NCBI GenBank assembly: GCA_016926395.1
Contig: JAFGOT010000033.1
Location: 1-28,716, forward strand
DNA length: 28,716 nt
Reading direction: 5' to 3'
From: Candidatus Woesearchaeota archaeon
GTDB taxonomy: Archaea > Nanobdellota > Nanobdellia > Woesearchaeales > SKGA01
In this document: piece by piece, positions 39 to 24,535 of the stretch
Layout: each line of letters starts with the position of its first letter
Position numbering within the stretch: position 1 is the first letter of the stretch
Translations under genes and position numbers: made by a program
Notes under the pieces: generated by a model
The model's input: only the letters and a program-made list of their open reading frames with translations
Told to the model about the DNA's origin: nothing
The model's database searches: none

Positions 39-611
39 TTATTCAGTTTTTGCTTTTGAATACAAAAAGCCAAATGCAGATTTTTTCTCTTTAATTTCTC
101 CATCCGCAGAAAGTTCAAATTTCTTAGTTTTTTGTGTTTTAAACATTCCTAAGAATTTAACTTCTTCTTTAGCTTTTATCATTGCAGCACCAGTTTCTTC
201 ATCAACAGTTACTTCAACACCTTCCATGTTTGCAAGTCTGTTTTGATATTGTTCTGCAAATTTATTCATGTTTTGTTCAAGAACAACTTTAGCGTTTTCA
301 TTTTTGACTTGAGTCATAGCATTAGCTAAACCTGTTTGTAGTTTAGCACCAGCTTCACCTTTTAACATCAAACCATCACCACTCATATCTTGAAGTTTAG
401 TTTGGACTTGATCCATTATTTGTTCTTGAATTAAACTTCCATTACCACCAACATCTTCAGGCATTCCTTCGCCCTTAGCACTAATTAATGTTGGAACAGC
501 TTTTTCCATTTCCGGTTTATCACCAGCACCTTCTGCTATAACAAAAGAAGACAGAAGAACTGTTAAAACCAGTAAAATTAACAATTTTTTCATTTGAATA
601 CACCTCAACAT
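39..611 (-). CDS. Secreted or surface hypothetical protein, 190 aa
   Basis: Signal peptide MKKLLILLVLTVLLSSFVIA (likely true start). C-terminal FLGMFK...GEIKEKKSAFGFLY motif of the type seen in DPANN exported proteins. Confidence 0.7.
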   Translation of the reverse strand: MLRCIQMKKLLILLVLTVLLSSFVIAEGAGDKPEMEKAVPTLISAKGEGMPEDVGGNGSLIQEQIMDQVQTKLQDMSGDGLMLKGEAGAKLQTGLANAMTQVKNENAKVVLEQNMNKFAEQYQNRLANMEGVEVTVDEETGAAMIKAKEEVKFLGMFKTQKTKKFELSADGEIKEKKSAFGFLYSKAKTE

Positions 612-697
612 AACTACTGTAGTATATAGTATTGCTTATAAATATTTTGCTTAATAGTTATAAATACTATTAAGAAGTGCAAAAAAAAGCAGAAAAA

Positions 698-1468
698 TTA
701 ATCCTCCTCTCTTTTTGGAACTACATACAACTTGTCAATCATCATCCCAAAAAGCAAAGCATCTTTCGCTTTCTTAGAAATATCAAAAGGCTCCAATGAT
801 TTTAAATCAGAAAAATAGTCCTCCATAAAATTAGATGCTAAAAGACCTCCCGTTTTCTCATAAAAATATTCTTCAGGAGATTCACATCTAAGATGTTTTC
901 GCATCCTATTCTCTAAAAAAATTCCTCTTTTTAGAGATTTTAACACTCCAAAAGAAATTGGATTAGCCTCATACAACCAAATAATATCGCCTACCGTTTT
1001 AACAGCACTTTTAGATATTAAAACATTTCCTGTTTCAAATTCATAAGCTCCAAGTTTAGAAACTAAAACACCTTCTTCTTGTTTTACTTCCAAATTAAAA
1101 CCAGCATAAATCCAATTATCAATTCCTCCTTGAGGTTTGGAAAAACCATGAATTTTTTGTTTGCCACCCCAAGATTCTTGAACAGTATCACCTAAATCTT
1201 TTTCTCCAAAACAAGTTCTTTCTAACAAGTCAAGTGCTTGCTTAGAAGTCTTGGCTCTAAAAGAATAATTAGGTTTAGAGTGAAGTTTTCCAATTATGTA
1301 TTCTTGATCCCCGCTCCCACCTATTTTTCCAGCATCAGGATTAGGTTCTATTATGGATGCTTTTCTTATTCTGTGAACACCATACTGCCAATCAAGTCTT
1401 GAAAGTTTAAAAGAATAATTAGGATTACTCCTAATCATTTCCGTTATATTTCGAAAGTTTTTCCTCAA
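698..1468 (-). CDS. Hypothetical protein, about 246-256 aa
   Basis: Long ORF directly behind the thyX stop, probably co-transcribed; no family recognised. Confidence 0.65.
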   Translation of the reverse strand: MRKNFRNITEMIRSNPNYSFKLSRLDWQYGVHRIRKASIIEPNPDAGKIGGSGDQEYIIGKLHSKPNYSFRAKTSKQALDLLERTCFGEKDLGDTVQESWGGKQKIHGFSKPQGGIDNWIYAGFNLEVKQEEGVLVSKLGAYEFETGNVLISKSAVKTVGDIIWLYEANPISFGVLKSLKRGIFLENRMRKHLRCESPEEYFYEKTGGLLASNFMEDYFSDLKSLEPFDISKKAKDALLFGMMIDKLYVVPKREED

Positions 1469-11588: not shown

Positions 11589-12164
11589 CTAAATCTGATA
11601 TTTTTTATCAACAGAAAGACCTTTTTCTAACAAGGATTCAGCAATAATCTTTTTTGATGAAGCTACAACATTAGAAACATATATTTTACTTCGATTAGTA
11701 TAAGCACTTATTTCTTTGTATGTTAGTCCTTCATTAAAATGCATCCTAAAAATATCTCTTTTTTCATCAGGAAGATTATCAACCTCCCTATTTATCAAAG
11801 CAACTAATTGAGAATTATCAGAATCATCTACTTGTGAATTTGGATCAACTAAATTTTCATCAAAACAATACTCGCAAGAAACACTTTGATTATATTTATT
11901 AATCATCAAATTTCGAGATTTCAATAAAAGTAACTTGTAAGAGTCATATTCATTCTCTTGATTAGCAATTTTTGATTTTCGAGAATCATCCAAGAAATAT
12001 AGAAAAGTATCTTGAATTACATCCAAAGTATCATCGTTAGATAAAGAAAGAGAAGAAGCAAGATTAGATAACTCTTCATGAAGATCTTCACCATAACGAT
12101 TGTAGAGCTTACTTATTGAATCAACACGTGATTTTGCATTTGTTTCGGTTATTAAAGAGGTCAT
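11589..12164 (-). CDS. ECF (sigma-70 family) sigma factor-like protein
   Basis: Region 2-like LYNRY...DDTLDVIQDTFLYF...KSRNLMINKY and region 4-like LPDEKRDIFRMHFNEGLTYKEIS; AGGAG SD at 12171-12175. Confidence 0.75.
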   Translation of the reverse strand: MTSLITETNAKSRVDSISKLYNRYGEDLHEELSNLASSLSLSNDDTLDVIQDTFLYFLDDSRKSKIANQENEYDSYKLLLLKSRNLMINKYNQSVSCEYCFDENLVDPNSQVDDSDNSQLVALINREVDNLPDEKRDIFRMHFNEGLTYKEISAYTNRSKIYVSNVVASSKKIIAESLLEKGLSVDKKYQI

Positions 12165-12262: not shown

Positions 12263-15200
12263 TTAGAAAACCCAAGATAGCCAGTTAATGAATTTTTTCC
12301 AAGTCCCTGCACTCACACATTGATCATTTGCACAGATACCGCTTGCACACTCAAAGCCATTCTCACAAGTCAAGTCACCATCTTTAAATGGAACCATATA
12401 TCCACCAGTACCACAATATCTTGCGTCTTTTCTAACGCCAACATCAAAACATTTTCCATTAACTAAACAACCAGTACAGTCAATTTCTGATTTATCAAAT
12501 TCAAATTGTTCTTTTGGAGCTTTTTCTTCTTTAGTGCCACAATCTTGTGGACAAGTTTCAGGAGTTTCTCCTAATCCTTTGTTTTCATGAACAAAACAAA
12601 CACCATCACCACATCTTGGAGTTTCTTTACAACAAGTTAAAGATGAACTCCCACAATCTAGATTTGTGTATTTTGGGTTATGTCCACAACCACGCTCAGC
12701 ACTAGTGCACACATACCCCGCCAATTCACACTCTGAAAAACCAGATTTTTTATCATCATCGGAGTTTTTATCATCAACTATTTCTAATGGTGTGTTTGCA
12801 CAGATTATCATTATTGATTGATGCGTTATAGGTTTGTGAACTATTTTTCGTCCATAAAAATAGTAATTAGTTTCGTTTTGAGGACCCATGTTTGCAAGAG
12901 AAATTTTTCTTCCAGTGTTTATCGTGCCTTCATAACTTGGTGAAACATCATCATTAAATCCATCAAAGAAAAAATCCATTCCAGTGTCGCCATTCCAAGA
13001 ATAGCCTGAACCTGCAACAACATAATATCCATCACCAAATTTAATTAGAGTTGGTTCTGTTAAAGTTACTTCATCAGTACAATAACTAGGTGCTGGAAGT
13101 ACAGGTGCATCCAAAGGATTTGATACGCAAGCGTCATCCTTACAATCACACACAACAGGATCTACAAGAATGGAACCATCAGGACCACAAGTTGTTTCCA
13201 TCATATAAGGTCCTTGATCAGTAGGTTCATCATAACTAGTTCCACAAAAATCAGCTTTCATCCCAACAACATCGCCTGTTTCTATGGAAGTAATTCTTGC
13301 CCACCCTCTTGTCATAATATCATCATTATCGCTGTTGTAACAAGTAGTTTCATCACGATAATAAAGAGGAAGATTAGTTGCAAATCCAGCAGCATTTGGT
13401 TTTCCATCATTAACGTAATTATATTCTATATCAAGCCTGTAACTTCCTGAAACAAAATTACTTGGAATATCAATGTTAAAACCAAAATGTTGCTCATTAA
13501 TACAACTTGGACAAACAGGTACGTAAAAATTTCTAGTCTCATTTGCAAGTCCTTCTAAAACAAAGTCAATTCCAGTTAATTGAAAATCATTTGTTGGCGC
13601 TGTAGTTTTTACATAAACATCAACTGGAAAACTAGTCATGTCATGATCCAATAATAAATGATCTTGACCATATATTTTTACATCGAATTTAACAATAGGA
13701 TTTTCTACAACAACTGCGTTACAATCAATATCAGACATGTCAGCAGTTGCAACAGTCAAAGTATTTTGAACTGAGTTGTAATAAGATACTTTTAATTCAT
13801 CTCCTTCTTGACAAACTAGACTATAACCTGTGTGAACCGAACCACCAAGCCAATCCGTATTAAAATCAACTGGTTGATTATCAATATACACATCACTATA
13901 TATCATAAAAGTATCAAATTTAATCATACCATCTTCTACTCTTAAGTTATTAATCTCAGGACCTTCAACAACATTAGGGTCCTCATTTATTGCATTGCCA
14001 TCAATATATATAGTCACCCGATTGTAATTGTTATTCTGTCCTGCATAAAGTATTGAATCAACATAGAAAGTATAGTTAGTTCCTGGAACAACAAAATATT
14101 CACAAGCTTCAACATCAAAAGATTCGCTTCCCGAACCAGAATAAACATTGAACGTCGCGTCCTCTTTACTATCAACAGATTCTAATTCTAATTCAAAACC
14201 ATTTACTAAAGTTACTTCTTGACTTTCTCTAAATTCTAATTTTTCTTTATCACCAGAGTAATAACAGTTTCGAATATCTTGAGTACCTTCTTTAACTGCA
14301 ACAGTCGCTTGTTCATCACCTTCATGGCCTAAATATAAGACTTCATCACCATTAGCAGAGTCGAATTCAAATTCTTCACAATAATCAACGTATTGAACAT
14401 CTCCACCTAAATTAACTTTAATAGTATCATCTTCAAAGTCAAAAACTTGAAGCCAAGTTCCATAAACATCGTCTTCAACTTCACCAGGAGTTAAAGTATA
14501 AACTGTATAATCATCTTCATCCTAACTTGGAAAATCAGACAAATCGCAATTAACAGGGACATTAGTATCTTCAAAAATTAATGCTGCTTGATTTTCAGGA
14601 CAACCTTCTTGATAAGCAACGTCAACAAGAGAAACTTTGTAATCATTTGCATCTTCAAAGATTTCGTAGTCGCCTTTAGATATTACTTTTGTTTGTCCAG
14701 CAACATCAATTATGGCTGCATCAAATCCAACACGAACTAAAGTTATATCTCGACCATCATAAACCATCTCGTCTCCTTCTGTTGCAACAACAACGTCAGA
14801 GTTGTAAGTATTATCATCAAGAGATGGACATTCAGGTTGGACTTCATATAGACATTCATAAACTGGTTTTGTAGAAGAGTAAGATTTTAGGTTTCCTCTA
14901 TCTTTCCGGTCACCAATTAATTCATCTCCAATATATTTTACATCAACAGTGTGAGGATAGAATTTTTTACAATAATTTATTCTTAGAGCATCAGTTGCTC
15001 CAAGTTCTGCACCAGAAACACCATCAAGATCAGTGAACCAAATATCTTTTGCCATATCGTAATGTTGATTTACTTTTCCTTGCCAAAAAGAAACTTTTGG
15101 AACTTTTTCCCCATAATTTGGAGCACCCCAACCATCTTGAGGATTAGTTATTTCTTCACAAAAAAATCGTACTTCATAGTCGGAACAATAACCGCCATTT

Positions 15201-15562
15201 TGTTCAGCGTTGACACACCAACAACCAGTTTTAGTAGTTGCATGAACTAACTCTCCTGTTAAATTCCAAGGCATATAATCTGTTTTTCGTCTACATTCAA
15301 TATTTAGTGGTTGTTCTCCACCACAAATAGTTTCAGCTCCAAAACCATTTATATCCTCATAATCACCCGCACCACTTGGATTATCTCTATCAAGCCAAGT
15401 AGTCCAAGCGCCACTTGTTTCAAAATTTACAGAAACAACATTGCCAGTTATTTTACCTGAAAAAACATCGCCTAAAAAGCCAGCACTAACAACACTAAGA
15501 CTTACAATGAACATAAACAATACCACAAAACTAAGAATGAATTTTTTCACCATATTACACAC
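12263..15562 (-). pseudogene. About 1099-codon Cys-rich surface protein gene interrupted by one in-frame TAG at 14522-14524 (nonsense allele, sequencing error or readthrough)
   Basis: ORFs 14522..15562 and 12263..14017 share a frame. The 168 codons between them are open and protein-like (DEDDYTVYTLTPGEVEDDVYGTWLQVFDF...) and contain no start codon before GTG 14017. Confidence 0.8.
15158..15406 (-). other. Mucin-2/CILP-type WxxW domain within the surface protein
   Basis: WTTWLDRDNPSGAGDYE...ICGGEQPLNIECR...GCWCVNAEQNGGYCSDYEVRFFC matches the Mucin2_WxxW pattern as I recall it. Confidence 0.8.
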
Positions 15563-16491: not shown

Positions 16492-16932
16492 ATGAGTGGT
16501 AGTTTAAGAAAAATAGCACAATATGTAATGGTACCTGTATTGCTAACCAGTCTTAGTTCTCATTCCTTCGTTCAAGAACCAGATAAAAGAGTTCTAAACA
16601 CAATCGATAGATTAATTGAAGAAGGATACAATCCACTACCATGTACCAGTCCAGAATGTGCAACTCATTTATGGAAAAAAACTGCAGATGGAAATTATGC
16701 AAATGTCCATCAAATCGATTCAACACCATACTTTGCAGAAGTAATAAACCAAAGCAACATTGCTGCAAACAAAAAATCAGGCGGTGTAGCTCAAATGTTA
16801 AGTCAATTTCCTGAAACAACATTAGACGAAATTGATACTAACGATGATTTCAAAATCACTAATTCTGAAATACTAGCATATAGAAGAAAACTTATAGAAG
16901 AAATAGAAAATAAAAAAAGAAAAAATCTATGA
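16492..16932 (+). CDS. Exported protein with a single EF-hand-like loop
   Basis: N-terminal hydrophobic stretch; DTNDDFKITNSE fits the DxNxDxxIxxxE loop; TTTATAAA at 16462-16469. Confidence 0.6.
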   Translation: MSGSLRKIAQYVMVPVLLTSLSSHSFVQEPDKRVLNTIDRLIEEGYNPLPCTSPECATHLWKKTADGNYANVHQIDSTPYFAEVINQSNIAANKKSGGVAQMLSQFPETTLDEIDTNDDFKITNSEILAYRRKLIEEIENKKRKNL

Positions 16933-19900
16933 AACATAGATTACTGGTTTTTTTGTTTCCAAACCTAAATCATTACCAAGTGCAGTCAATGAAGGTAAGA
17001 CATAAGTATATCCTCCTCTAAATCGGGAAGTGTCCCCATTGTAACAATTTAATTCAGGATCTTCTGTTGCCATTAAACTTACAAAGTGTTGTTCTCCGGA
17101 ATTTGCACCTGAATAACCAAAACCAGCTTCTTTTAACGTAGCATATTCATCCTCTGTTAAAAAATACCTAGAATCAATTGTTTCAAATAAAGGTATTTCT
17201 TTACCACCAAGCTCATCAACCACAACAGTTAATTGATCGGTTAGTAAATCACTAGCACCTAAATATTTAGTAGCCAAATCCATTCCTTGAGAAACTTCAC
17301 TGAACAATTTAGTTGAAGCTAACTTAAATCTTGGGTAGATTGTAACAGCCATATAATTTGAAACTAAAACATTCTTCTCAACAGTACTTAAGTCAGGATA
17401 TTTAGAATTTAATTCAGCCATTATTTCTGCATTAATATCTTCTTGAATTGTTCGTTCAGTTAAGATGTTCGGTTTCTTTTCCCCAGTAACATCATCAACA
17501 ACAGAATAAGGTCTACCTTCAAAGTCCAAATCAATAATTAGTGAACCATCGTCGAATACATCACTTTGTATCCAAACTTGAGCTGCGACATCATAAGGAT
17601 AATAAGTTTCCATATCAACAGCAGACAGTTTATCTGGTCGCATCAGAGAAGCTAAAATAGAGTCTCTAAAGTCAGGGAATAAAGTTTTCTCATCCTTTGT
17701 CAATCTATCAAATTCAGATTCCCAGTTAGATCGTTCAGTGTTTAAGTTAGGCGTATTAATACTAGATAAGTTAAGTCCGCCTATTTTAGATTCATCAGTT
17801 ACAACTGCACCTCTAAACCATGCAGAACCACCATAGTAAAAAGGATTTGAAACAACCCAATAATCAGATATTTTTTCATTCCAATCAGATCTAGGTCTTA
17901 AATCTAGAATTTCATAACCAGTTTGTAGATATAAAAGAGAGTTTGGTTGATTGTATTTTCCACCAAGTTCATTTCCTTTAACCATACTAGTTCTCATTCC
18001 AGTAAAATATTCTGAAGTTAACTTAAAATTTAATATACCATCTTCTAAGATTTTTTTGCCTTTAATTGGTTGAACAAAACTTCCAACATCAACATCAACA
18101 TCAGGAGTACTAGATCCGTCAATTTTTCCTTTAGTTTCTTTTGACGCCAATTTAGAATTTAAAGCATCCAAATCATAAACGTATCTCAATCTTAAAGTTG
18201 AAGATGCTGAAAAAGTATTAGTTTCTCCACCACCTTCTTTTTTATCAAACTTATCAACAATTTCAAATCTCACCAAAGCATCTTTGTAAAAAGCAGTTGC
18301 TTTTCGATCAACTTTATTAACCAAAGTGGTTGAAGCATCCAGACCAGGTACTTCAACTTCACAGATGTATAAATCAAGAGGTTTAATACCATCCACATTC
18401 AAAAACATTTGGAAATCGTCTTCAGAGTAAACATCTCCTTTTGATGCTTTTTTACATTCTGTAAAACCTGATTTTTTATAATCAGTTGGAGTTCCAAAAG
18501 AAACAACTTTTCCAGGAGTGTATGATAACTCAAAACTACCAGAACCAGTAGATATAGCGCTATATGTTCCTGAACTTTTCTTTGCTCTTTTCTCTTTAAG
18601 TTTTTCAGAGAAAGATTGATATGGACAGTAAGATTCAAACTTGTTAAATTTTAAACCAGGAAGTTCCAGTTTTATTTTCAATTTAGGATCTCTTTCAAAA
18701 ACTGTTGAACCAACAACATTTTCAATACATCCATCAACCGCTAAATCAATTAAAGTTGCTTCAACAAAAACAGGCTCACTTGAAGCTACTAAAACAGTAG
18801 CTTTTTTCGAATTACCATCAGCCAAAACAGGAATAATATTTGATTGTGTTGAGAAATCTGATTTTAAAGCAGAAGACCACCATTCAAACACACCGTCTTT
18901 CATTGATTTAATTTTAACACGATCATTAACAGAGTTTAAGAAAGCAACATCTGACTGTTTTATTGCAGAGAATAAAATCATTGGTCTTGATTCTTCTAAT
19001 GATTTAGATACAGGAACTAAATCTGCAGCACCTCTAAAATTCTGTTGATTCATAACAGTTGATAAAGGATCACCTAACAATCTAAACTTATTATCGTAAC
19101 GACTTTGAGCTCGTTCTAATAAGGTGTCTGCTTCACAAGATCCTCCAGAAATACAAGATTCCAATCTAGACTCAGAAGGGACCCATTTTATATAATTTCC
19201 AAATAAAACAGATGGAAGTTCACCAGTTTTAAGGTTTGTTTCATAAGGTCGTCTTAGAACTCTTAAGAAAAATTGGCCTTGATTAGATTTAATAGAATTC
19301 TCAGAAGAAGAAATATAAATTCCTCGAGAACCTTCTCTTAAATATCTAAGCGCTAAAGGCGGTTCGTTAGAGTCAAAATCTAAAAGATTAGCATTAGTTT
19401 CAAAAAACATCAAGTTATTTTTAGATTTTTCATCAACACCTAAAGTAGGCATTCCTTTCAAACCACCATCAACATCTTTATCGCCAAGATAATAAAAAAT
19501 ATCATAATTCATGTAATTAAATTCTGTTTTAGTACAATCAGAAGATTTAGATATTTCTTGTTGAGGAAGGGAAATTAAATATTTATCTTTACCATCAACG
19601 GTTTCTTTTGTTACTCTTGGAGATTCTTTAATAGATACTTCAAAATCAACACGTCGATTAAGTCTCATCAAAACTTCTTTTCTAAGATAATCACAAGTAG
19701 CATCTGAAAAATCATCATCCAAAAGTTTACATTTGTCCCAAACAGAATCAATATAATCTTGAGTTAACTCATGAGGTTCAAAAGTTAATTTATTAGGAAC
19801 AATATAATCAGATAAATATAAGTCTATATCTTCTTGGGTTAAGTTACGTGGTTTTTCTTCACCATTAGCTTCAGAAACAATAGTTCCTGAGAAACCATAA

Positions 19901-22119
19901 TCCTTTAGTAGTTTTTCAACAGCATTTGCTCTTCTTTGAGACAAATCTTTGTTATATTCATTAGTTCCATCAGCATCAGTATTTGCAGATAATTTTATAC
20001 TAATCAAATTACTAGTTCCTAATTGTTTTTCTAAAGAATTCCAATCATCAACAAGTTTTTTAAGTTGTCTACTTGAGACATCAAGAACTTTATCTTTATC
20101 ATAATCAAATTGAATATCCATTGAAAAAGCATCTAAGTACGGAAGTCCTTCGCTATTCTTTATGTTCTTTGAATCTTCTTCTTTTGAATATATTTGAATA
20201 CTGTTAGATTTAGCATTACAAATTTGTTCTATGAACATAGGTGTTATGGAAATAGGATCAGAAGGTAATCTTTGATCACCAGCAAAATTACTTAAGTCTT
20301 GCCATACAAACGGATCAGTAAATCTAAAATCAGAAGAAGTTGTTGTAGCTAGACCAACACTTAATTTTTGTTTCACATTATTATCATAAAAACGACCATA
20401 AACCAAACCATCATCATTTGCAAGATTAGAATCAGTATATCTGGAATGAAGGTATCCATTAAAGAAACTTTTAGTAACAAGAGCAGCTGTATCTCCAGGA
20501 GTCAAACCAGTTAACCATCCAACTCGAGTAATATCCCAAAACAATTCTTGTTTATCAGCTAAATTTTTGTAAGATTTATCTGCTAATAAATAAGGTTCAG
20601 TGGTTATTTGAAAAAACTGATCATTATAAAAAAATGGAACAGTATAAGGATTTCCAATAACACTTACAAATATTTCCTTAGAATCTTTTATATTATCCTC
20701 TTGTCTAAATATTTTTTGTTGCCAGAAAAGATTTCTTAATGAATTAATTAAAACATTAGATTTACCCTTAAGACCAAAAAACGAATATGTCAAATCAGAG
20801 TTTAAGCTATTTTCTTTGGAAACATCCGCTAAAAAAATACCGAGATCTTCATTAAAATTACTTACAACCAAATCTGCATCTCCTCTAAGAGGCATTAAGA
20901 TTCCACCTCTAACAGCTGCAAAATATGGAACTACTAAAGAATCTCTACAAAAAGTAGAAGGCGCTTTAGATAGTCCAGATGTTTCTTTTAAGTATTCAGA
21001 ATATTTAGTTGAACAAAAACCATCAATATCTTTTGGGTTATAAACTATCAAGTGATCATCAATTCTTTGTTTTACATCACCAGGGTTTAAAGGAGTAGCA
21101 TATTTTCTTTTGTAGCTTAAAAGTTTAGTTTGAAATGAATATAACTTTGCAGCATTAGTATTCAATTCAAAAATAGATTGCTCCATGAATTGACTTGGAT
21201 ATTTGTTAGTGCCTTTGTATTTTTCCTGTATATTTCTAAAATTTGTTGTGAAATTCGCGGCATCAGAAGAAGGATAAAGTTGAGTTAAAGAACTTGCCTG
21301 ATCATTTACAACAGTTATTATCTTAACATTAGGAGTTCGATCAGCATAAGTTGGTAAAAAATAAGCATAGTTTCCAAAATATAAACGTTCATTTGAGGAA
21401 ACAAAACGATCAACACCATCAATTAATAAAGGAGCATTCAAAGTTGATGCAATTGTAGAAGCAATTATAGCTGCATCGTAATTATTTTCTGAAACAACTA
21501 ATAATAAATTTTGAGATGGAGTGTTAGTGGATCCTGAATTTTTAGTTGCCCATCTATTAATGTAATCAGAATTGTCCATACAATAAACAGATTCATTCTT
21601 ATAAGACGCAAAGAAACTTTGCTTGTTTTTAGATTCATCACAAAAAGAGTTTTTCCCAAAAGCCAAAACAGCATCATAAAGTCCATTCTCTAACAATTTT
21701 CTAATAGGATAGTAATCTCCCTCATGAACAACACCAAAACCCTCATAATCTGAGATTCTCAAAGAACCCTCGCCAGAAGAAGGACGATATAATTGGATGT
21801 TAGTAGCTAAAGTGGTTGCTTTTAAAACCGATTGCCAATCACTAGAATCTGCAATAATAAGAAGTCTTTTCCCAGAAAGATCTTCATCATAACCCTTCCA
21901 TGAAAAAGTGTTTTGATTATTTAGAAAAGAAGTTCTCGCTTCCTCATCAGCAAACCATTTTAAATCAGGGGTTTGATAATCGGGAGTTGACACAACGCCT
22001 TGAGAATTTATATTATCTAAACCTGCTTCAAAATCAGATTCAGTTAAAGCAAAGGTTAAACCCGCTGTTAAAATCACAAACACTAATCCTAAAAATACCA
22101 ACTTATTATTTACCATCAT
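16927..22119 (-). CDS. 1730-aa secreted multidomain protein: CWB2-like repeats, C25 peptidase-like scaffold and inserted OmpA-like domain
   Basis: Signal peptide; NYDAAIIASTIASTLNAPLL; IGNPYTVPF, RVGWLTG, LLGDP; NTDADGTNEYNKDLSQRRANAV...NGEEKP...NRRVDF; AGGAGA SD. Confidence 0.8.
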   Translation of the reverse strand: MMVNNKLVFLGLVFVILTAGLTFALTESDFEAGLDNINSQGVVSTPDYQTPDLKWFADEEARTSFLNNQNTFSWKGYDEDLSGKRLLIIADSSDWQSVLKATTLATNIQLYRPSSGEGSLRISDYEGFGVVHEGDYYPIRKLLENGLYDAVLAFGKNSFCDESKNKQSFFASYKNESVYCMDNSDYINRWATKNSGSTNTPSQNLLLVVSENNYDAAIIASTIASTLNAPLLIDGVDRFVSSNERLYFGNYAYFLPTYADRTPNVKIITVVNDQASSLTQLYPSSDAANFTTNFRNIQEKYKGTNKYPSQFMEQSIFELNTNAAKLYSFQTKLLSYKRKYATPLNPGDVKQRIDDHLIVYNPKDIDGFCSTKYSEYLKETSGLSKAPSTFCRDSLVVPYFAAVRGGILMPLRGDADLVVSNFNEDLGIFLADVSKENSLNSDLTYSFFGLKGKSNVLINSLRNLFWQQKIFRQEDNIKDSKEIFVSVIGNPYTVPFFYNDQFFQITTEPYLLADKSYKNLADKQELFWDITRVGWLTGLTPGDTAALVTKSFFNGYLHSRYTDSNLANDDGLVYGRFYDNNVKQKLSVGLATTTSSDFRFTDPFVWQDLSNFAGDQRLPSDPISITPMFIEQICNAKSNSIQIYSKEEDSKNIKNSEGLPYLDAFSMDIQFDYDKDKVLDVSSRQLKKLVDDWNSLEKQLGTSNLISIKLSANTDADGTNEYNKDLSQRRANAVEKLLKDYGFSGTIVSEANGEEKPRNLTQEDIDLYLSDYIVPNKLTFEPHELTQDYIDSVWDKCKLLDDDFSDATCDYLRKEVLMRLNRRVDFEVSIKESPRVTKETVDGKDKYLISLPQQEISKSSDCTKTEFNYMNYDIFYYLGDKDVDGGLKGMPTLGVDEKSKNNLMFFETNANLLDFDSNEPPLALRYLREGSRGIYISSSENSIKSNQGQFFLRVLRRPYETNLKTGELPSVLFGNYIKWVPSESRLESCISGGSCEADTLLERAQSRYDNKFRLLGDPLSTVMNQQNFRGAADLVPVSKSLEESRPMILFSAIKQSDVAFLNSVNDRVKIKSMKDGVFEWWSSALKSDFSTQSNIIPVLADGNSKKATVLVASSEPVFVEATLIDLAVDGCIENVVGSTVFERDPKLKIKLELPGLKFNKFESYCPYQSFSEKLKEKRAKKSSGTYSAISTGSGSFELSYTPGKVVSFGTPTDYKKSGFTECKKASKGDVYSEDDFQMFLNVDGIKPLDLYICEVEVPGLDASTTLVNKVDRKATAFYKDALVRFEIVDKFDKKEGGGETNTFSASSTLRLRYVYDLDALNSKLASKETKGKIDGSSTPDVDVDVGSFVQPIKGKKILEDGILNFKLTSEYFTGMRTSMVKGNELGGKYNQPNSLLYLQTGYEILDLRPRSDWNEKISDYWVVSNPFYYGGSAWFRGAVVTDESKIGGLNLSSINTPNLNTERSNWESEFDRLTKDEKTLFPDFRDSILASLMRPDKLSAVDMETYYPYDVAAQVWIQSDVFDDGSLIIDLDFEGRPYSVVDDVTGEKKPNILTERTIQEDINAEIMAELNSKYPDLSTVEKNVLVSNYMAVTIYPRFKLASTKLFSEVSQGMDLATKYLGASDLLTDQLTVVVDELGGKEIPLFETIDSRYFLTEDEYATLKEAGFGYSGANSGEQHFVSLMATEDPELNCYNGDTSRFRGGYTYVLPSLTALGNDLGLETKKPVIYVS
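19630..20121 (-). other. OmpA-like (OmpA C-terminal / Pal / MotB) peptidoglycan-binding domain, about aa 667-830
   Basis: IQFDYDK, xTDxxG, YNxxLSxRRAxAV, GEEKP and NRRV motifs all present and in the correct order. Confidence 0.85.
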
Positions 22120-22135
22120 AATATCTCCTTAATTA

Positions 22136-22900
22136 TTAACTTGAAAATAAACCATGAAATGAGAACACATAAGATAACTGTTCATTCTCCAATTCATTCA
22201 AATAAAATACCAAATCGCCATCTCTTTCAGGAGTTATCATGTAGACAAACCCTCTTTGAGTAGCATAACTAACACCCGGTTCGTAAAAAAAATCATAAGG
22301 TTGAATAGGATTTAACAATAAATCAATTGTATGATATATTGAACCTATATTAGAAGCAAAAGTATAACTAACAGGGCCTTGAGTTTGGGTAGCGCCTGTT
22401 GAATCAGTTAAAGTAGCATGAGTATCAACCGTTACAGTAATCTCTCCTTCTTCAACAAAAGTCTTTAAATCAACCAAACTATCATCATAAATTAAATCGC
22501 CTTCTAAATATTTTGAAAATATTTCAAATCCATCTATACAACTAATAACCTCATCACGATAATCTTGTGCATATCTATCTTGAAGTTCCTGTTTCGTTGG
22601 TAACGTTGAAAGTCCACTAAAATAGAAATAAGGAATATTTTCTCGAATCATATTTTTATTTTGAAGATAGAAATGATTTGCTAAAACAGAAGTAGGAGTC
22701 TCTTTGAAAGTAGATTCTAAACAACTTTTTGTATATGTTTCTAAACTCCTTGGCGTTACAGAACCATCAGCAGACAATAAACTCGTATCAAAATCTTGAA
22801 CACCTTGCCGTTCAGATGTAAAATAGAAGACTGCTAGAACTCCTACAAGTATTGCAATTCCAACAATAACTAACATAGTAATTTGACCTTTCTGACTCAC
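22136..22900 (-). CDS. Class III signal peptide (archaeal type IV pilin-like) protein, 254 aa
   Basis: MSQKG|QITMLVIVGIAILVGVLAVFYF; TATA at 22935-22942; 16 nt from the next gene. Confidence 0.75.
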   Translation of the reverse strand: MSQKGQITMLVIVGIAILVGVLAVFYFTSERQGVQDFDTSLLSADGSVTPRSLETYTKSCLESTFKETPTSVLANHFYLQNKNMIRENIPYFYFSGLSTLPTKQELQDRYAQDYRDEVISCIDGFEIFSKYLEGDLIYDDSLVDLKTFVEEGEITVTVDTHATLTDSTGATQTQGPVSYTFASNIGSIYHTIDLLLNPIQPYDFFYEPGVSYATQRGFVYMITPERDGDLVFYLNELENEQLSYVFSFHGLFSS

Positions 22901-22949: not shown

Positions 22950-24035
22950 CTAACTAAGATCAAACTTTTTCAAAACTATTTCGCCTTTCTTAAACTTAAA
23001 TTCGTAATCACCATCATTAAGTCCAGCTACCTTAGAAACCACTTCTGGAAGCAAAACTCTATTTCCTCTAAAGTCAAGATTAGTTATCAAAGTGTTAATT
23101 TCAACATCTACTCGCTCTAGGTTTTCCATCATGAAATCTTCGGCTCCTCGTTTTAGTTCTTTTCCTCTTTTCTTAGAAGTTTGTTCATGTAAAAATAAGG
23201 CAATTTTATCAGCAACATCAATACCTGTATATTGAGTTATTCCTTGAAGACCAGGGCTTACATTTAATTCAATAACTAAAGGACCTTTAATTTTTGAAAT
23301 AAGAAGATCAACTCCACAAATAGGAGCTCCTATTGCTTTTGAAGCTTTTATCGCCACTCGTCTTGATTCTTCATCTAAGTCTATTGCTTCTCCAACACCA
23401 CCAGCATGAATATTAGATCGCACTTCTCGTTTGTTAGCCACTCGTTTGTAAGCAGCGACTACTTTGTCACCAACAACAAAAGCACGAACGTCAGTTCCAC
23501 CTGTTTCAACATATTCTTGAATAATGAAGGGTTGTCTTAGTGTTGATAAAGCATCAAGTATGGAAGATGCACTTGCAAACGAATCTGCAAATAAAACACC
23601 TTTTCCTTGCGTTCCTTGAGGGAACTTCATAATAATAGGATAATTTAATCGTTCAAGCATTTCTCTTGCTGCTGCAATAGTTGATGCTAAGTGAGTTGTT
23701 GGCATAGGTATATTGTTTCTTTGAAGTTCTAATTGAGTTAGAAGTTTATCGTGCGCTACAACAAATGCTTTATCTTCTAAAGGTAAGTAAGTAACACCAT
23801 CTAAAAGAACAGTTAAGGATTGTAATAAGTTTGCGTATCGAAAAGAACCTTTTGCAAATAAACAGTCATAAGATTTTAAGGGTTCTCCTTTGTATAAAAT
23901 CTGAGCTTTTTTCCCACTAAAATTAATTTCTAAATGTCTAATATCAATATCATCCACTTCATCAAAATATTTTTTCATAGCATCTATTGTCCATTTACTC
24001 GAGTCACTTCCTAAACTCACTACTGCTGCATTCAT
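22950..24035 (-). CDS. rimK: RimK family ATP-grasp alpha-L-glutamate ligase with C-terminal AbrB-like extension
   Basis: DKLLTQLEL...IPMPTT, YPIIMKFPQGTQGKGV, IIQEYV...DVRAFVVG, RSNIHAGG, GVDLL, IELNVSPG. Confidence 0.88.
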   Translation of the reverse strand: MNAAVVSLGSDSSKWTIDAMKKYFDEVDDIDIRHLEINFSGKKAQILYKGEPLKSYDCLFAKGSFRYANLLQSLTVLLDGVTYLPLEDKAFVVAHDKLLTQLELQRNNIPMPTTHLASTIAAAREMLERLNYPIIMKFPQGTQGKGVLFADSFASASSILDALSTLRQPFIIQEYVETGGTDVRAFVVGDKVVAAYKRVANKREVRSNIHAGGVGEAIDLDEESRRVAIKASKAIGAPICGVDLLISKIKGPLVIELNVSPGLQGITQYTGIDVADKIALFLHEQTSKKRGKELKRGAEDFMMENLERVDVEINTLITNLDFRGNRVLLPEVVSKVAGLNDGDYEFKFKKGEIVLKKFDLS

Positions 24036-24406
24036 TTTCTAAACATTCTCGTTTTTCTATTTGGATCAATTAAGAATCCGCCTTTTCTTAAAATATTTTT
24101 ACCAATCAGGATAGGGAATCGCATATGAGTCCGGTTTGCAATCGTAAAGTGTTCAGTCACTGTGTGTCCTGCAATTTCAACAGTTATGTCAACAAAGCCC
24201 CTTTTTTCTGTTCCATTTGCATTTTTTACAGTTGTTTCTCCAATAATTGGCCCAAGACCAAGTACAGGAACTAAAGATTCATCAATCGAACTTTTTGTTG
24301 CTCCAGTATCTACCTTCGCTTTAAAAATAGCATTTTGCTTCTTTCCTTGGAGCATTACAGGCTCTATAAGCCCGATTATTGCTTTTTCACCTAACTCAGT
24401 TGACAT
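24032..24406 (-). CDS. RimK-associated retropepsin-like protease (RimB / DUF785 type)
   Basis: AKVDTGATKSSID, R..M..PILIGKN; 4-nt ATGA overlap with rimK; likely start ATG 24406 (TATA 24429-24436). Confidence 0.85.
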   Translation of the reverse strand: MSTELGEKAIIGLIEPVMLQGKKQNAIFKAKVDTGATKSSIDESLVPVLGLGPIIGETTVKNANGTEKRGFVDITVEIAGHTVTEHFTIANRTHMRFPILIGKNILRKGGFLIDPNRKTRMFRK

Positions 24407-24535
24407 GATTGTTCTAAACACAAATCCCTTTATAAAGCTTCGCGATTATTTAAAAAAGAATTAAAGAAGTAAACAAAAAAATAAAAAATGCAATCTAAAG
24501 AATTGCAACATAACAAGCAAGTATGTTTAACACTC

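What the first reader, a model, noticed from the sequence alone, without database searches (positions are those of the whole stretch)
16927..22119. Giant archaeal surface protein carrying an intact OmpA-like peptidoglycan-binding domain
Seen: a 1730-aa protein with a signal peptide contains, at about aa 667-830, all OmpA C-terminal motifs in order (FDYDK, NTDADG, YNKDLSQRRANAV, NGEEKP, NRRVDF). The Asp of the xTD motif and the Arg of the LSxRRA motif are retained. Established: these residues bind the diaminopimelate stem peptide in OmpA, Pal and MotB, and DPANN archaea make no peptidoglycan. Inference: an exported murein-binding module may let this archaeon attach to bacterial cell walls as a host, prey or scavenging substrate. 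Characterised DPANN hosts are archaeal, so this would be notable. A ~60-aa insert with a Cys pair lies between GEEKP and NRRV.
Basis: partly seen in the sequence, partly recalled or inferred. Interest (0 to 1): 0.85.

Follow-up and report, generated by a model that had tools for sequence, protein, structure and literature searches.

The report
Archaeal dead-protease adhesin with murein-binding module
A tiny Woesearchaeota (DPANN) archaeon that appears to make no cell wall of its own exports a 1730-residue protein built on an inactivated gingipain-type protease fold, into which a complete bacterial-type OmpA peptidoglycan-binding domain is inserted; it is a concrete candidate for how such archaea grip bacterial cell walls.

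Summary
Window 16927-22119 (-) encodes a 1730-aa protein whose only hydrophobic segment is N-terminal. It has a genuine OmpA-like domain at aa ~657-832: Pfam PF00691 is above threshold, and the fold matches OprF, Pal and AbOmpA at Z 11-13. The Asp715/Arg730 pair, equivalent to the diaminopimelate-binding pair of AbOmpA, is kept.

The contig is archaeal and not chimeric. Its relatives are titled Woesearchaeota/Nanobdellota.

New here: the OmpA domain is nested inside a gingipain (peptidase C25, caspase-fold) domain, and CWB2-like repeats precede it. OmpA-less relatives keep the catalytic GHG/ACS motifs. All five OmpA-bearing members have lost both, yet they keep the OmpA signature residues invariant at about 25% overall identity.

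A pilin-like gene sits directly upstream in all three congeners that carry the gene. The same genome encodes an NlpC/P60+SLT murein hydrolase. No Mur ligase, PBP or SEDS gene was found.

Murein binding is inferred, not shown. The general idea, that Woesearchaeota giant proteins target bacterial walls, is already published (Castelle 2021; Vigneron 2022). NCBI already names an ortholog 'OmpA family protein'. I rate this a new variant of a known kind, of moderately high interest.

The parts
22136..22900 (-). Upstream partner gene of 254 aa. It has an invariant KGQIT motif followed by a hydrophobic helix, which resembles a class III (type IV pilin-like) signal. It ends 16 nt before the giant gene.
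   Evidence: The same two-gene arrangement is found in G005 and G008. The alignment shows M1 K4 G5 Q6 I7 T8 invariant. Paralogs lie beside other giant genes in this genome. There was no Pfam or NCBIfam hit.
22045..22119 (-). N-terminal signal peptide or signal anchor, aa 1 to about 25. It is the only hydrophobic segment in the protein.
   Evidence: Hydropathy scan. Cleavage was not tested.
21100..21921 (-). CWB2-like N-terminal region, aa about 67-340, with the motifs SDWQSVLKATTLA and NYDAAIIASTIASTLNAPLLIDG.
   Evidence: hhalign against C25-bearing relatives gave probability 99.9%. Relatives P0034 and P0036 give weak Pfam CW_binding_2 hits. VIA-align matched the C. difficile CWB2 proteins Cwp6, Cwp8 and SlpA at Z about 10 with about 250-260 residues aligned. 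The ESM Atlas gave a lead only.
20152..21060 (-). First half of the gingipain-like (peptidase C25, caspase-fold) domain, aa about 354-656.
   Evidence: VIA-align matched RgpB 4ief_B at Z 15.2 and Kgp 4rbm at Z 14.1, over model 293/295..968, which is aa 352/354-1027. hhalign gave E 2.4e-32.
19624..20151 (-). OmpA-like peptidoglycan-binding domain, aa about 657-832, nested in the C25 fold. Asp715 and Arg730 are retained.
19663..19848 (-). Insert of about 62 aa inside the OmpA-like domain, aa 758-819, between the GEEKP strand and the NRRVDF strand. It is predicted helical and contains Cys797 and Cys809.
   Evidence: helices at model 703-760, low to moderate confidence. The insert is poorly conserved, with 1 invariant residue of 62.
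19039..19542 (-). Second half of the gingipain-like domain, aa about 860-1027, with the catalytic dyad lost. DIFYYLGD880 replaces the xxGHG motif and ETN908AN replaces the xACS motif.
   Evidence: Alignment A4 with the OmpA-less members P0027 and P0029. hhalign gave probability 96%, E 3e-9 against P0027/P0029, and those two gave probability 100%, E 1e-48 against the C25 set. The gingipain structural match spans this part.
16927..19002 (-). C-terminal region of about 690 aa with no recognisable family or fold. It is collinear in the orthologs but weakly conserved.
   Evidence: Pfam, NCBIfam and the Atlas gave nothing. 11 of 691 residues are invariant. This part was not folded.

Best explanation
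The gene encodes a Sec-exported, non-catalytic surface protein of a Woesearchaeote. Its order is: N-terminal signal or anchor, CWB2-like repeats, then a gingipain-type (C25) caspase-fold domain that has lost its His/Cys dyad. This dead protease domain serves as a scaffold. A complete bacterial-type OmpA-like domain is inserted into one of its loops. About 690 residues of unknown fold follow.

The most likely working part is the OmpA-like pocket (Thr714-Asp715 ... Arg730, plus the NRRV strand). In bacteria this pocket clamps the free D-centre carboxylate and amine of meso-diaminopimelate in uncross-linked murein stem peptides. The archaeon appears to make no murein, so the ligand would be foreign: exposed DAP-type peptidoglycan of monoderm bacteria, of damaged cells, or of wall debris. 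The protein would therefore act as a murein-binding adhesin or tether. It probably works with the pilin-like protein co-encoded directly upstream, and alongside the genome's NlpC/P60+SLT giant hydrolase.

Shown: the domain architecture, the nesting, the loss of the catalytic dyad, the conservation of the OmpA signature, the synteny and the genomic background. Inferred: export topology, murein as the ligand, cooperation with the pilin-like partner, and the biological role (attachment, predation or scavenging).
For: The OmpA domain is confirmed by profile, by sequence and by fold.

Across five members that share only about 23-30% identity, the invariant residues are T714, D715, Y722, N723, L726, S727, R730, G753, E754, P757, L820, N821, R822 and R823. 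The OmpA core and its last strand are the best-conserved parts of the protein, at 45% and 53% mean identity against 32-41% elsewhere. The Asp/Arg pair equals AbOmpA Asp271/Arg286, which bind diaminopimelate (PMC12108004).

Gingipain RgpB and Kgp align on both sides of the OmpA domain, at Z 15.2 and 14.1. OmpA-less relatives keep the GHG and ACS motifs, while all OmpA-bearing members lack them. So the binding site is under selection while catalysis was given up.

The pilin-like gene is conserved upstream in three genomes.

The same genome holds a 1369-aa NlpC/P60+SLT protein and a 525-aa SLT protein. No Mur ligase, PBP or SEDS gene was found.

The nearest OmpA sequences that carry a source name are bacterial: Bacteroidota and Desulfobacter, at 36-48% identity.

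Published precedent: giant SLT proteins of Woesearchaeota and Pacearchaeota were proposed to bind or degrade bacterial walls (PMC8204110; PMC9723730), and archaeal PG hydrolases with PG-binding domains kill bacteria (PMC12352652).
Against: There is no binding data.

Peptidoglycan of diderm bacteria lies under an outer membrane and is out of reach of an external adhesin.

OmpA-like domains also occur in other Nanoarchaeota, in OmpA+vWA lipoprotein-like proteins and in multi-TM proteins. This could mean that these archaea have an endogenous ligand for the domain.

The genome is only 82.5% complete, so the absence of wall synthesis is not proven.

The 62-aa insert and the final strand are modelled with low to moderate confidence, so pocket accessibility in the nested context is unverified.

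The family is patchy, present in 3 of 14 congeners searched, so it is accessory rather than core to the lifestyle.

How the protein stays on the archaeal cell is unknown.
Confidence: 0.5

Rival explanations
1. The OmpA-like domain binds a non-murein polymer. This could be the archaeon's own surface glycan or S-layer glycopeptide, so the domain would anchor the giant protein to its own cell. It could also be the envelope of an archaeal host, for example pseudomurein, whose gamma- and epsilon-linked residues also expose free alpha-carboxylates.
For: About 4% of sampled genomes of the phylum carry OmpA-like domains. Some are in multi-TM membrane proteins and OmpA+vWA lipoprotein-like proteins, which look like residents of the cell's own envelope. 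The protein has no C-terminal anchor, so some domain must hold it on the cell. An earlier scan note reports a FemX-like aminoacyl transferase in this genome's glycan operon (e1-4529534, unchecked). The characterised DPANN hosts I know of are archaea.
Against: The conserved residues are exactly the bacterial DAP-binding signature. The other wall-related domains in the genome, SLT and NlpC/P60, are murein-specific types. CWB2-like repeats are a better candidate for anchoring to the cell's own surface. No pseudomurein-binding family was detected in this protein.
Confidence: 0.22
2. The protein captures soluble muropeptides or wall debris for scavenging, as a nutrient source, rather than mediating attachment to living cells.
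For: The genome is small, about 1 Mb, and DPANN archaea are described as depending on other organisms for resources (PMC9723730). Murein hydrolases are encoded in the same genome. From prior knowledge of bacterial OmpA-like domains, they bind uncross-linked stem peptides, which are abundant in debris.
Against: A 1730-aa multi-domain protein with a pilin-like partner looks more like an adhesin than a binding protein feeding a transporter. No transporter gene is adjacent.
Confidence: 0.15
3. The OmpA module is a structurally tolerated relic of horizontal transfer, or a purely structural insert with no ligand. The protein would then function through its other parts.
For: The family evolves fast and is patchily distributed. 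Related proteins work without the insert (P0027 and P0029).
Against: The OmpA signature residues are the most conserved positions of the protein across about 25%-identity members, while the host domain's catalytic residues decayed.
Confidence: 0.08
4. Assembly artefact: bacterial DNA joined to an archaeal contig.
For: The domain type is bacterial, and the genome is a MAG.
Against: GC content is uniform at 0.27-0.36 across the contig. An independent assembly contig shows the same neighbouring genes. Collinear orthologs lie in two other MAGs from other samples. The OmpA domain is embedded inside an archaeal protein family whose flanking halves match each other.
Confidence: 0.02

Closest known systems
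[quoted passage not shown] 2021, PMC8204110; also Vigneron et al. 2022, PMC9723730)
   Same: These are giant exported proteins of small-genome Woesearchaeota that carry a bacterial murein-directed domain. They have been proposed to bind or degrade bacterial walls. One such protein (NlpC/P60+SLT, 1369 aa) is present in this same genome.
   Different: This protein has no hydrolase domain. The murein-directed module is a binding domain (OmpA-like), and the scaffold is a dead C25 peptidase. It shares no detectable sequence similarity with the other proteins of this genome.
Bacterial OmpA C-terminal-like domains: OprF (5u1h), Pal (1oap, 4g4v), AbOmpA (3td3/3td5), PorE (6top)
   Same: The beta-alpha-beta-alpha-beta fold is the same, at Z 11-13. 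All signature motifs are present, including the Asp and Arg that bind diaminopimelate.
   Different: The host is an archaeon without murein. The domain is nested inside another domain rather than terminal. It carries a 62-aa helical insert before the last strand (two inserts in the G005 and G008 orthologs). It faces outward from the cell rather than into a periplasm.
Gingipains RgpB/Kgp and PorU (peptidase family C25, caspase fold)
   Same: The fold of aa about 354-1027 is the same, at Z 15.2 and 14.1 with 265 residues aligned. Relatives of the family hit Pfam Peptidase_C25 (24 of 39). Like gingipains, these are large surface or secreted multidomain proteins with adhesin-type extensions.
   Different: The catalytic His and Cys are replaced (D880 and N908). 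An OmpA domain interrupts the fold. The Pfam C25 model does not hit this protein itself.
CWB2 cell-wall-binding triads of Clostridioides difficile Cwp6/Cwp8/SlpA (PF04122)
   Same: There is structural similarity at Z about 10 over about 250-260 residues. The motif 'aDAxxaaxxAaxxnaPlLl' is shared. In both cases the region sits in a surface protein next to an enzyme-type domain.
   Different: There is no Pfam hit in this protein itself. The repeat number and the ligand are unknown. This host has no teichoic-acid-type polymer known to me.
Modular archaeal peptidoglycan hydrolases with PG-binding domains (PLoS Biol 2025, PMC12352652)
   Same: These are archaeal secreted proteins that carry bacterial PG-binding modules acquired from bacteria, and they act against bacteria.
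   Different: Those proteins pair a binding domain (PG_binding_1, LysM) with an active catalytic domain. This protein has binding only. 'OmpA' does not occur in the main text of that paper; its list of qualifying domains (S10 Table) was not opened.

Membership tests
OmpA family / OmpA C-terminal-like domain (PF00691) | Profile match above the curated threshold | tested here: met
   33.2 bits against a cut-off of 27.2; 38.6 bits in the genome search.
OmpA family / OmpA C-terminal-like domain (PF00691) | Beta-alpha-beta-alpha-beta-beta fold including the final RRV strand | tested here: met
   VIA-align gave Z 11-13.3 with 100-115 residues aligned over model 598..773. Foldseek gave TMt up to 0.77. 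The last strand is modelled at only moderate pLDDT.
OmpA family / OmpA C-terminal-like domain (PF00691) | Asp of the TD motif and Arg of the LSxxRA motif (AbOmpA D271/R286), which contact diaminopimelate | tested here: met
   D715 and R730 are present and invariant in the 5 family members. Their role in AbOmpA is described in PMC12108004.
OmpA family / OmpA C-terminal-like domain (PF00691) | Non-covalent binding to peptidoglycan | not testable with these tools
   This needs a pull-down or ITC experiment with sacculi or muropeptides.
Peptidase family C25 (gingipain-like) | Caspase-like fold of the catalytic domain | tested here: met
   RgpB at Z 15.2 and Kgp at Z 14.1, with 265-266 residues aligned at rmsd 3.9-4.5. 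hhalign to C25-bearing relatives gave probability 99.9%.
Peptidase family C25 (gingipain-like) | Pfam PF01364 match | tested here: not met
   There was no hit in the protein or in the genome. The control genomes also gave no hit, so the genome search is weak evidence. 24 of 39 relatives do hit the model.
Peptidase family C25 (gingipain-like) | Catalytic His (GHG) and Cys (AC) dyad | tested here: not met
   In alignments A4 and the hhalign output, His aligns with D880 and Cys aligns with N908. Both are lost in all five OmpA-bearing members and kept in P0027 and P0029. The protein is therefore a pseudo-peptidase and not a working C25 member.
CWB2 cell-wall-binding repeat (PF04122) | Profile match | tested here: not met
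   No hit in the protein or in the genome. Only weak hits were seen in relatives: P0034 at 25.8 bits and P0036 at 21.8 bits.
CWB2 cell-wall-binding repeat (PF04122) | Rossmann-like repeat triad fold | tested here: inconclusive
   Cwp6, Cwp8 and SlpA matched at Z 9.7-10.4 with 248-260 residues aligned, but the aligned range overlaps the first half of the C25 domain.
Archaeal type IV pilin-like proteins (class III signal peptide), tested on the upstream partner gene | Short charged N-terminus, a K/R-G-Q/A/S cleavage motif, then a hydrophobic helix | tested here: met
   The sequence MSQKGQITMLVIVGIAILVGVLAVFYF has K4 G5 Q6 I7 T8 invariant in 4 homologs. This is motif level only; there was no profile hit.

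The most novel reading that the evidence does not exclude
This protein, presented with its pilin-like partner, is the host-recognition adhesin of a Woesearchaeote that lives on, or preys upon, monoderm bacteria. A protease scaffold was disarmed and refitted with a stolen bacterial murein clamp. It would be the first defined molecular handle for an archaeon-on-bacterium episymbiosis, and would allow the bacterial host to be fished out with the recombinant domain.
Probability: 0.3. Interest if true: 0.85.

Novelty: new variant of a known kind. Interest (0 to 1): 0.6.

Why it matters
Whether any DPANN archaea live on bacteria is an open question, raised only from hydrolase-domain annotations. This protein adds a pure binding module with a well-understood ligand pocket, and that pocket is conserved while the surrounding enzyme was inactivated. 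It gives a small, expressible domain of about 180 aa with predicted knock-out residues (D715, R730). That domain can be used for pull-downs with DAP-type, Lys-type and pseudomurein sacculi, and as a labelled probe to find the partner organism in the source community. It is also a clear example of domain nesting (OmpA inside a caspase fold) and of a pseudo-enzyme reused as an adhesin scaffold.

Tried and rejected
- The word-indexed search of the whole protein against 5.8 billion proteins found only the protein itself. The exhaustive HMMER profile search was needed to find relatives.
- There are no paralogs in the protein's own genome.
- The tree of OmpA domains (86 rows, 88 columns) was unresolved. 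It neither supports nor rejects a single origin of the domain in the giant family, and it names no donor. A single insertion is inferred only from the identical insertion point.
- Direct hhalign of the post-OmpA half against the C25 set was weak (probability 7%). The link holds only through the OmpA-less members P0027 and P0029 and through structure.
- Foldseek on the 981-residue model returned only OmpA hits. The gingipain and CWB2 matches appeared only with VIA-align wide.
- The first small AF2 model did not place the NRRVDF strand. The larger model did, at moderate confidence.
- The ESM Atlas gave only a weak CWB2 lead for the N-terminus and nothing for the C-terminus.
- Pfam and NCBIfam gave nothing for the pilin-like partner.
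- A literature search for the sample accession found only Cuatro Cienegas papers that contain the string C1M08, which occurs in the isolate name of the G008 MAG (C1M08_52); I did not open them.
- I did not run complex prediction, because the report does not claim a demonstrated interaction with the partner.
- I considered and rejected a CPR bacterium as the source. The contig carries the archaeal ribosomal proteins S19e and L31e, read from the translations.
Full report
**Observation.** The minus-strand ORF at window 16927-22119 translates to 1730 residues. A 63-residue stretch between the last two holds Cys797 and Cys809. The only hydrophobic segment is the N-terminus. Pfam OmpA (PF00691) scores 33.2 bits against a gathering score of 27.2. 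NCBIfam models for Pal, PorE, YiaD, PA1041 and OmpA hit aa 665-764 at about 1e-10. The best solved relative by sequence is the peptidoglycan-binding domain of OprF (5u1h, E 2e-10). An AF2 model of aa 650-845 has a confident core (pLDDT 80-90 for aa 666-751) and matches OprF, Pal, AbOmpA and PorE by Foldseek.

**Organism and authenticity.** The window is a whole contig of a 1.02-Mb, 40-contig genome, 82.5% complete with 0.95% contamination. Reading the translations, it carries the archaeal ribosomal proteins S19e and L31e. GC content is uniformly 0.27-0.36. Contigs carrying orthologs are titled 'Candidatus Woesearchaeota archaeon' and 'Nanobdellota archaeon'. An independent Logan assembly contig shows the same neighbouring genes. 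Two congeneric genomes have collinear 1584-aa orthologs at 23-28% identity. Chimerism with bacterial DNA is therefore very unlikely. In the own genome I found no Mur ligase, no PBP transpeptidase and no SEDS protein. Given the incompleteness, this supports but does not prove the absence of murein synthesis.

**What the protein is.**
- An exhaustive HMMER search with a profile of the first ~1190 residues found a small family: P0025/P0002, P0003, P0026, P0028, P0087, P0027 and P0029.
- The same search gave two clouds of weaker hits, one on profile positions 75-232 and one on 600-680, the OmpA domain.
- Of 39 relatives taken mostly from the first cloud, together with P0027 and P0029, 24 carry Pfam Peptidase_C25 downstream. 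Two others give weak CW_binding_2 hits.
- Profile-profile comparison of the three orthologs with these relatives gave probability 99.9%, E 2.4e-32, over aa 67-562.
- In the family alignment, two members without any OmpA segment (P0027, P0029) show the C25/caspase-type motifs NGHGS/KDHGS and VHACST/ADACST. At the same columns P0001 has YLGD880KD and ETN908AN, and the other OmpA-bearing members likewise lack both His and Cys.
- The post-OmpA half of the OmpA-bearing members matches P0027/P0029 at probability 96% (E 3e-9). Those two match the C25 set at probability 100% (E 1e-48). The direct comparison was weak.

An AF2 model of aa 60-1040 (pTM 0.63) was compared with 48,161 PDB representatives.
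- The best matches are gingipain RgpB (Z 15.2, 266 residues aligned) and Kgp (Z 14.1). They span model residues 295/293-968, that is aa 354/352-1027, on both sides of the OmpA segment.
- OmpA-like domains match residues 598-773 (aa 657-832) at Z 11-13.3.
- C. difficile CWB2 proteins Cwp6, Cwp8 and SlpA match residues ~20-473 at Z ~10.

The resulting architecture is: signal or anchor, CWB2-like repeats, then a gingipain-like fold interrupted by a complete OmpA-like domain and stripped of its catalytic dyad, then ~690 residues of unknown fold.

**Selection.** Among the five OmpA-bearing members, the OmpA core and its last strand are the best-conserved parts, at 45% and 53% mean identity to P0001 against 32-41% elsewhere. 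The invariant residues are the family signature: T714, D715, Y722, N723, L726, S727, R730, G753, E754, P757 and L820-N821-R822-R823. D715 and R730 correspond to AbOmpA Asp271 and Arg286, which bind diaminopimelate (PMC12108004). The binding pocket has been kept while the host enzyme's active site was abandoned. This is the strongest argument that the OmpA module is the functional heart of the protein.

**Context.**
- A 254-aa gene ends 16 nt upstream of the giant gene. Its N-terminus (MSQKGQITMLVIVG...) has an invariant KGQIT motif followed by a hydrophobic helix, as in class III (pilin-like) signals.
- The same pair of genes is found in both orthologous loci.
- Paralogs of this small gene sit next to other giant genes in the genome.
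- The genome also encodes a 1369-aa NlpC/P60+SLT protein and a 525-aa SLT protein. This agrees with earlier scan notes on that locus, which I re-tested only at the Pfam level.
- The family is accessory: it was found in 3 of 14 congeners searched, and not in the sister genus.

**Distribution of OmpA-like domains in the phylum.** PF00691 hits occur in 18 of 401 sampled genomes and in 13 of 280 genera. By my reading of the translations, about six are OmpA+vWA-like lipoprotein-type proteins and about five are multi-TM proteins with an OmpA domain and a coiled coil. Others include binding-protein fusions and one MotB-like protein. So the domain is rare but recurrent in these archaea. This weakens the uniqueness of the finding and leaves room for an endogenous ligand.

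**Origin.** Among the nearest sequences, those that carry a source name are bacterial OmpA family proteins (Bacteroidota, Desulfobacter), at 36-48% identity over about half of the query. A domain tree was unresolved, so no donor can be named. A single insertion is inferred from the shared insertion point.

**Mechanism.** The best-supported reading (about 0.5) is a non-catalytic, exported adhesin whose OmpA pocket binds foreign DAP-type murein stem peptides. The CWB2-like repeats and/or the pilin-like partner would hold it on the archaeal surface, and the genome's murein hydrolases could expose or process the substrate. The rivals are:
- binding of an endogenous or archaeal-host polymer (0.22);
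- muropeptide scavenging (0.15);
- an inert relic (0.08);
- an assembly artefact (0.02).

**Comparison with the literature.** Castelle et al. 2021 (PMC8204110) and Vigneron et al. 2022 (PMC9723730) already proposed that giant SLT-domain proteins of Woesearchaeota and Pacearchaeota bind or degrade bacterial walls. A 2025 study showed archaeal PG hydrolases with PG-binding domains killing bacteria (PMC12352652). None of the three mentions OmpA in its main text, and searches for OmpA-like domains in Nanoarchaeota/DPANN found nothing relevant. Six papers contain both 'DPANN' and 'gingipain'; judged by their titles and abstracts, none concerns a DPANN gingipain-like protein. NCBI's pipeline already names the G005 ortholog 'OmpA family protein'. 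The finding is thus a new variant of a known kind. It is a new binding-type module and a new architecture (OmpA nested in a dead gingipain fold) within an already proposed DPANN-versus-bacteria theme.

Noticed in passing
window 14522-15562 (-): A 346-aa secreted protein with a strong Mucin2_WxxW domain hit (PF13330, 70 bits) and a weak APP_N heparin-binding hit. This is a domain best known from animal mucins, found here in a Woesearchaeote.
   Followed up: no
window 11589-12164 (-): A 191-aa protein with Sigma-70 region 4 hits (PF08281 at 28 bits, PF04545 at 26.5 bits) in an archaeal genome.
   Followed up: no
window 12263-14017 (-): A 584-aa Cys-rich protein with no Pfam or NCBIfam hit. It lies next to the WxxW protein and may belong to a surface-protein cluster.
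   Followed up: no
window 22950-24421 (-): A RimK-type ATP-grasp ligase (164 bits) overlaps a 129-aa Zn_protease/retropepsin-like aspartyl protease. This is the known RimK-associated protease pairing, and it lies just upstream of the pilin-like gene.
   Followed up: no
G000:C19:28721-33527 (L023): A paralog of the pilin-like partner (258 aa) sits directly before a 1342-aa giant protein that contains an Isochorismatase domain (PF00857, 40.5 bits). This is a second 'pilin-like + giant' pair. Further pairs are on contigs C31, C4 and C15.
   Followed up: partly
L016:7266-8462 (G003), L017:7226-8413 (G039), and L029, L033, L034, L036: A recurrent type of ~330-440-aa lipoprotein-like protein in Nanoarchaeota, with an OmpA-like domain and a C-terminal part that I read by eye as vWA-like (not tested against Pfam). 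In G003 it lies next to a gene that looks like a tyrosine-recombinase integrase, also read from the translation only, which hints at mobile-element carriage.
   Followed up: partly
L038, L039, L041, L032, L035 (G242, G392, G319, G281, G161): Nanoarchaeota membrane proteins with several hydrophobic (putative TM) segments, a Gly-rich linker and an OmpA-like domain. Three of them (L038, L039, L041) continue with another hydrophobic segment and a long coiled-coil tail. This is a second archaeal context for the domain, and its ligand is unknown.
   Followed up: no
G000 whole genome: This 1.0-Mb genome encodes 27 ORFs of 900 aa or more, one of them 5841 aa long (C11:46238-63763). That is an unusually large share of giant proteins.
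   Followed up: no
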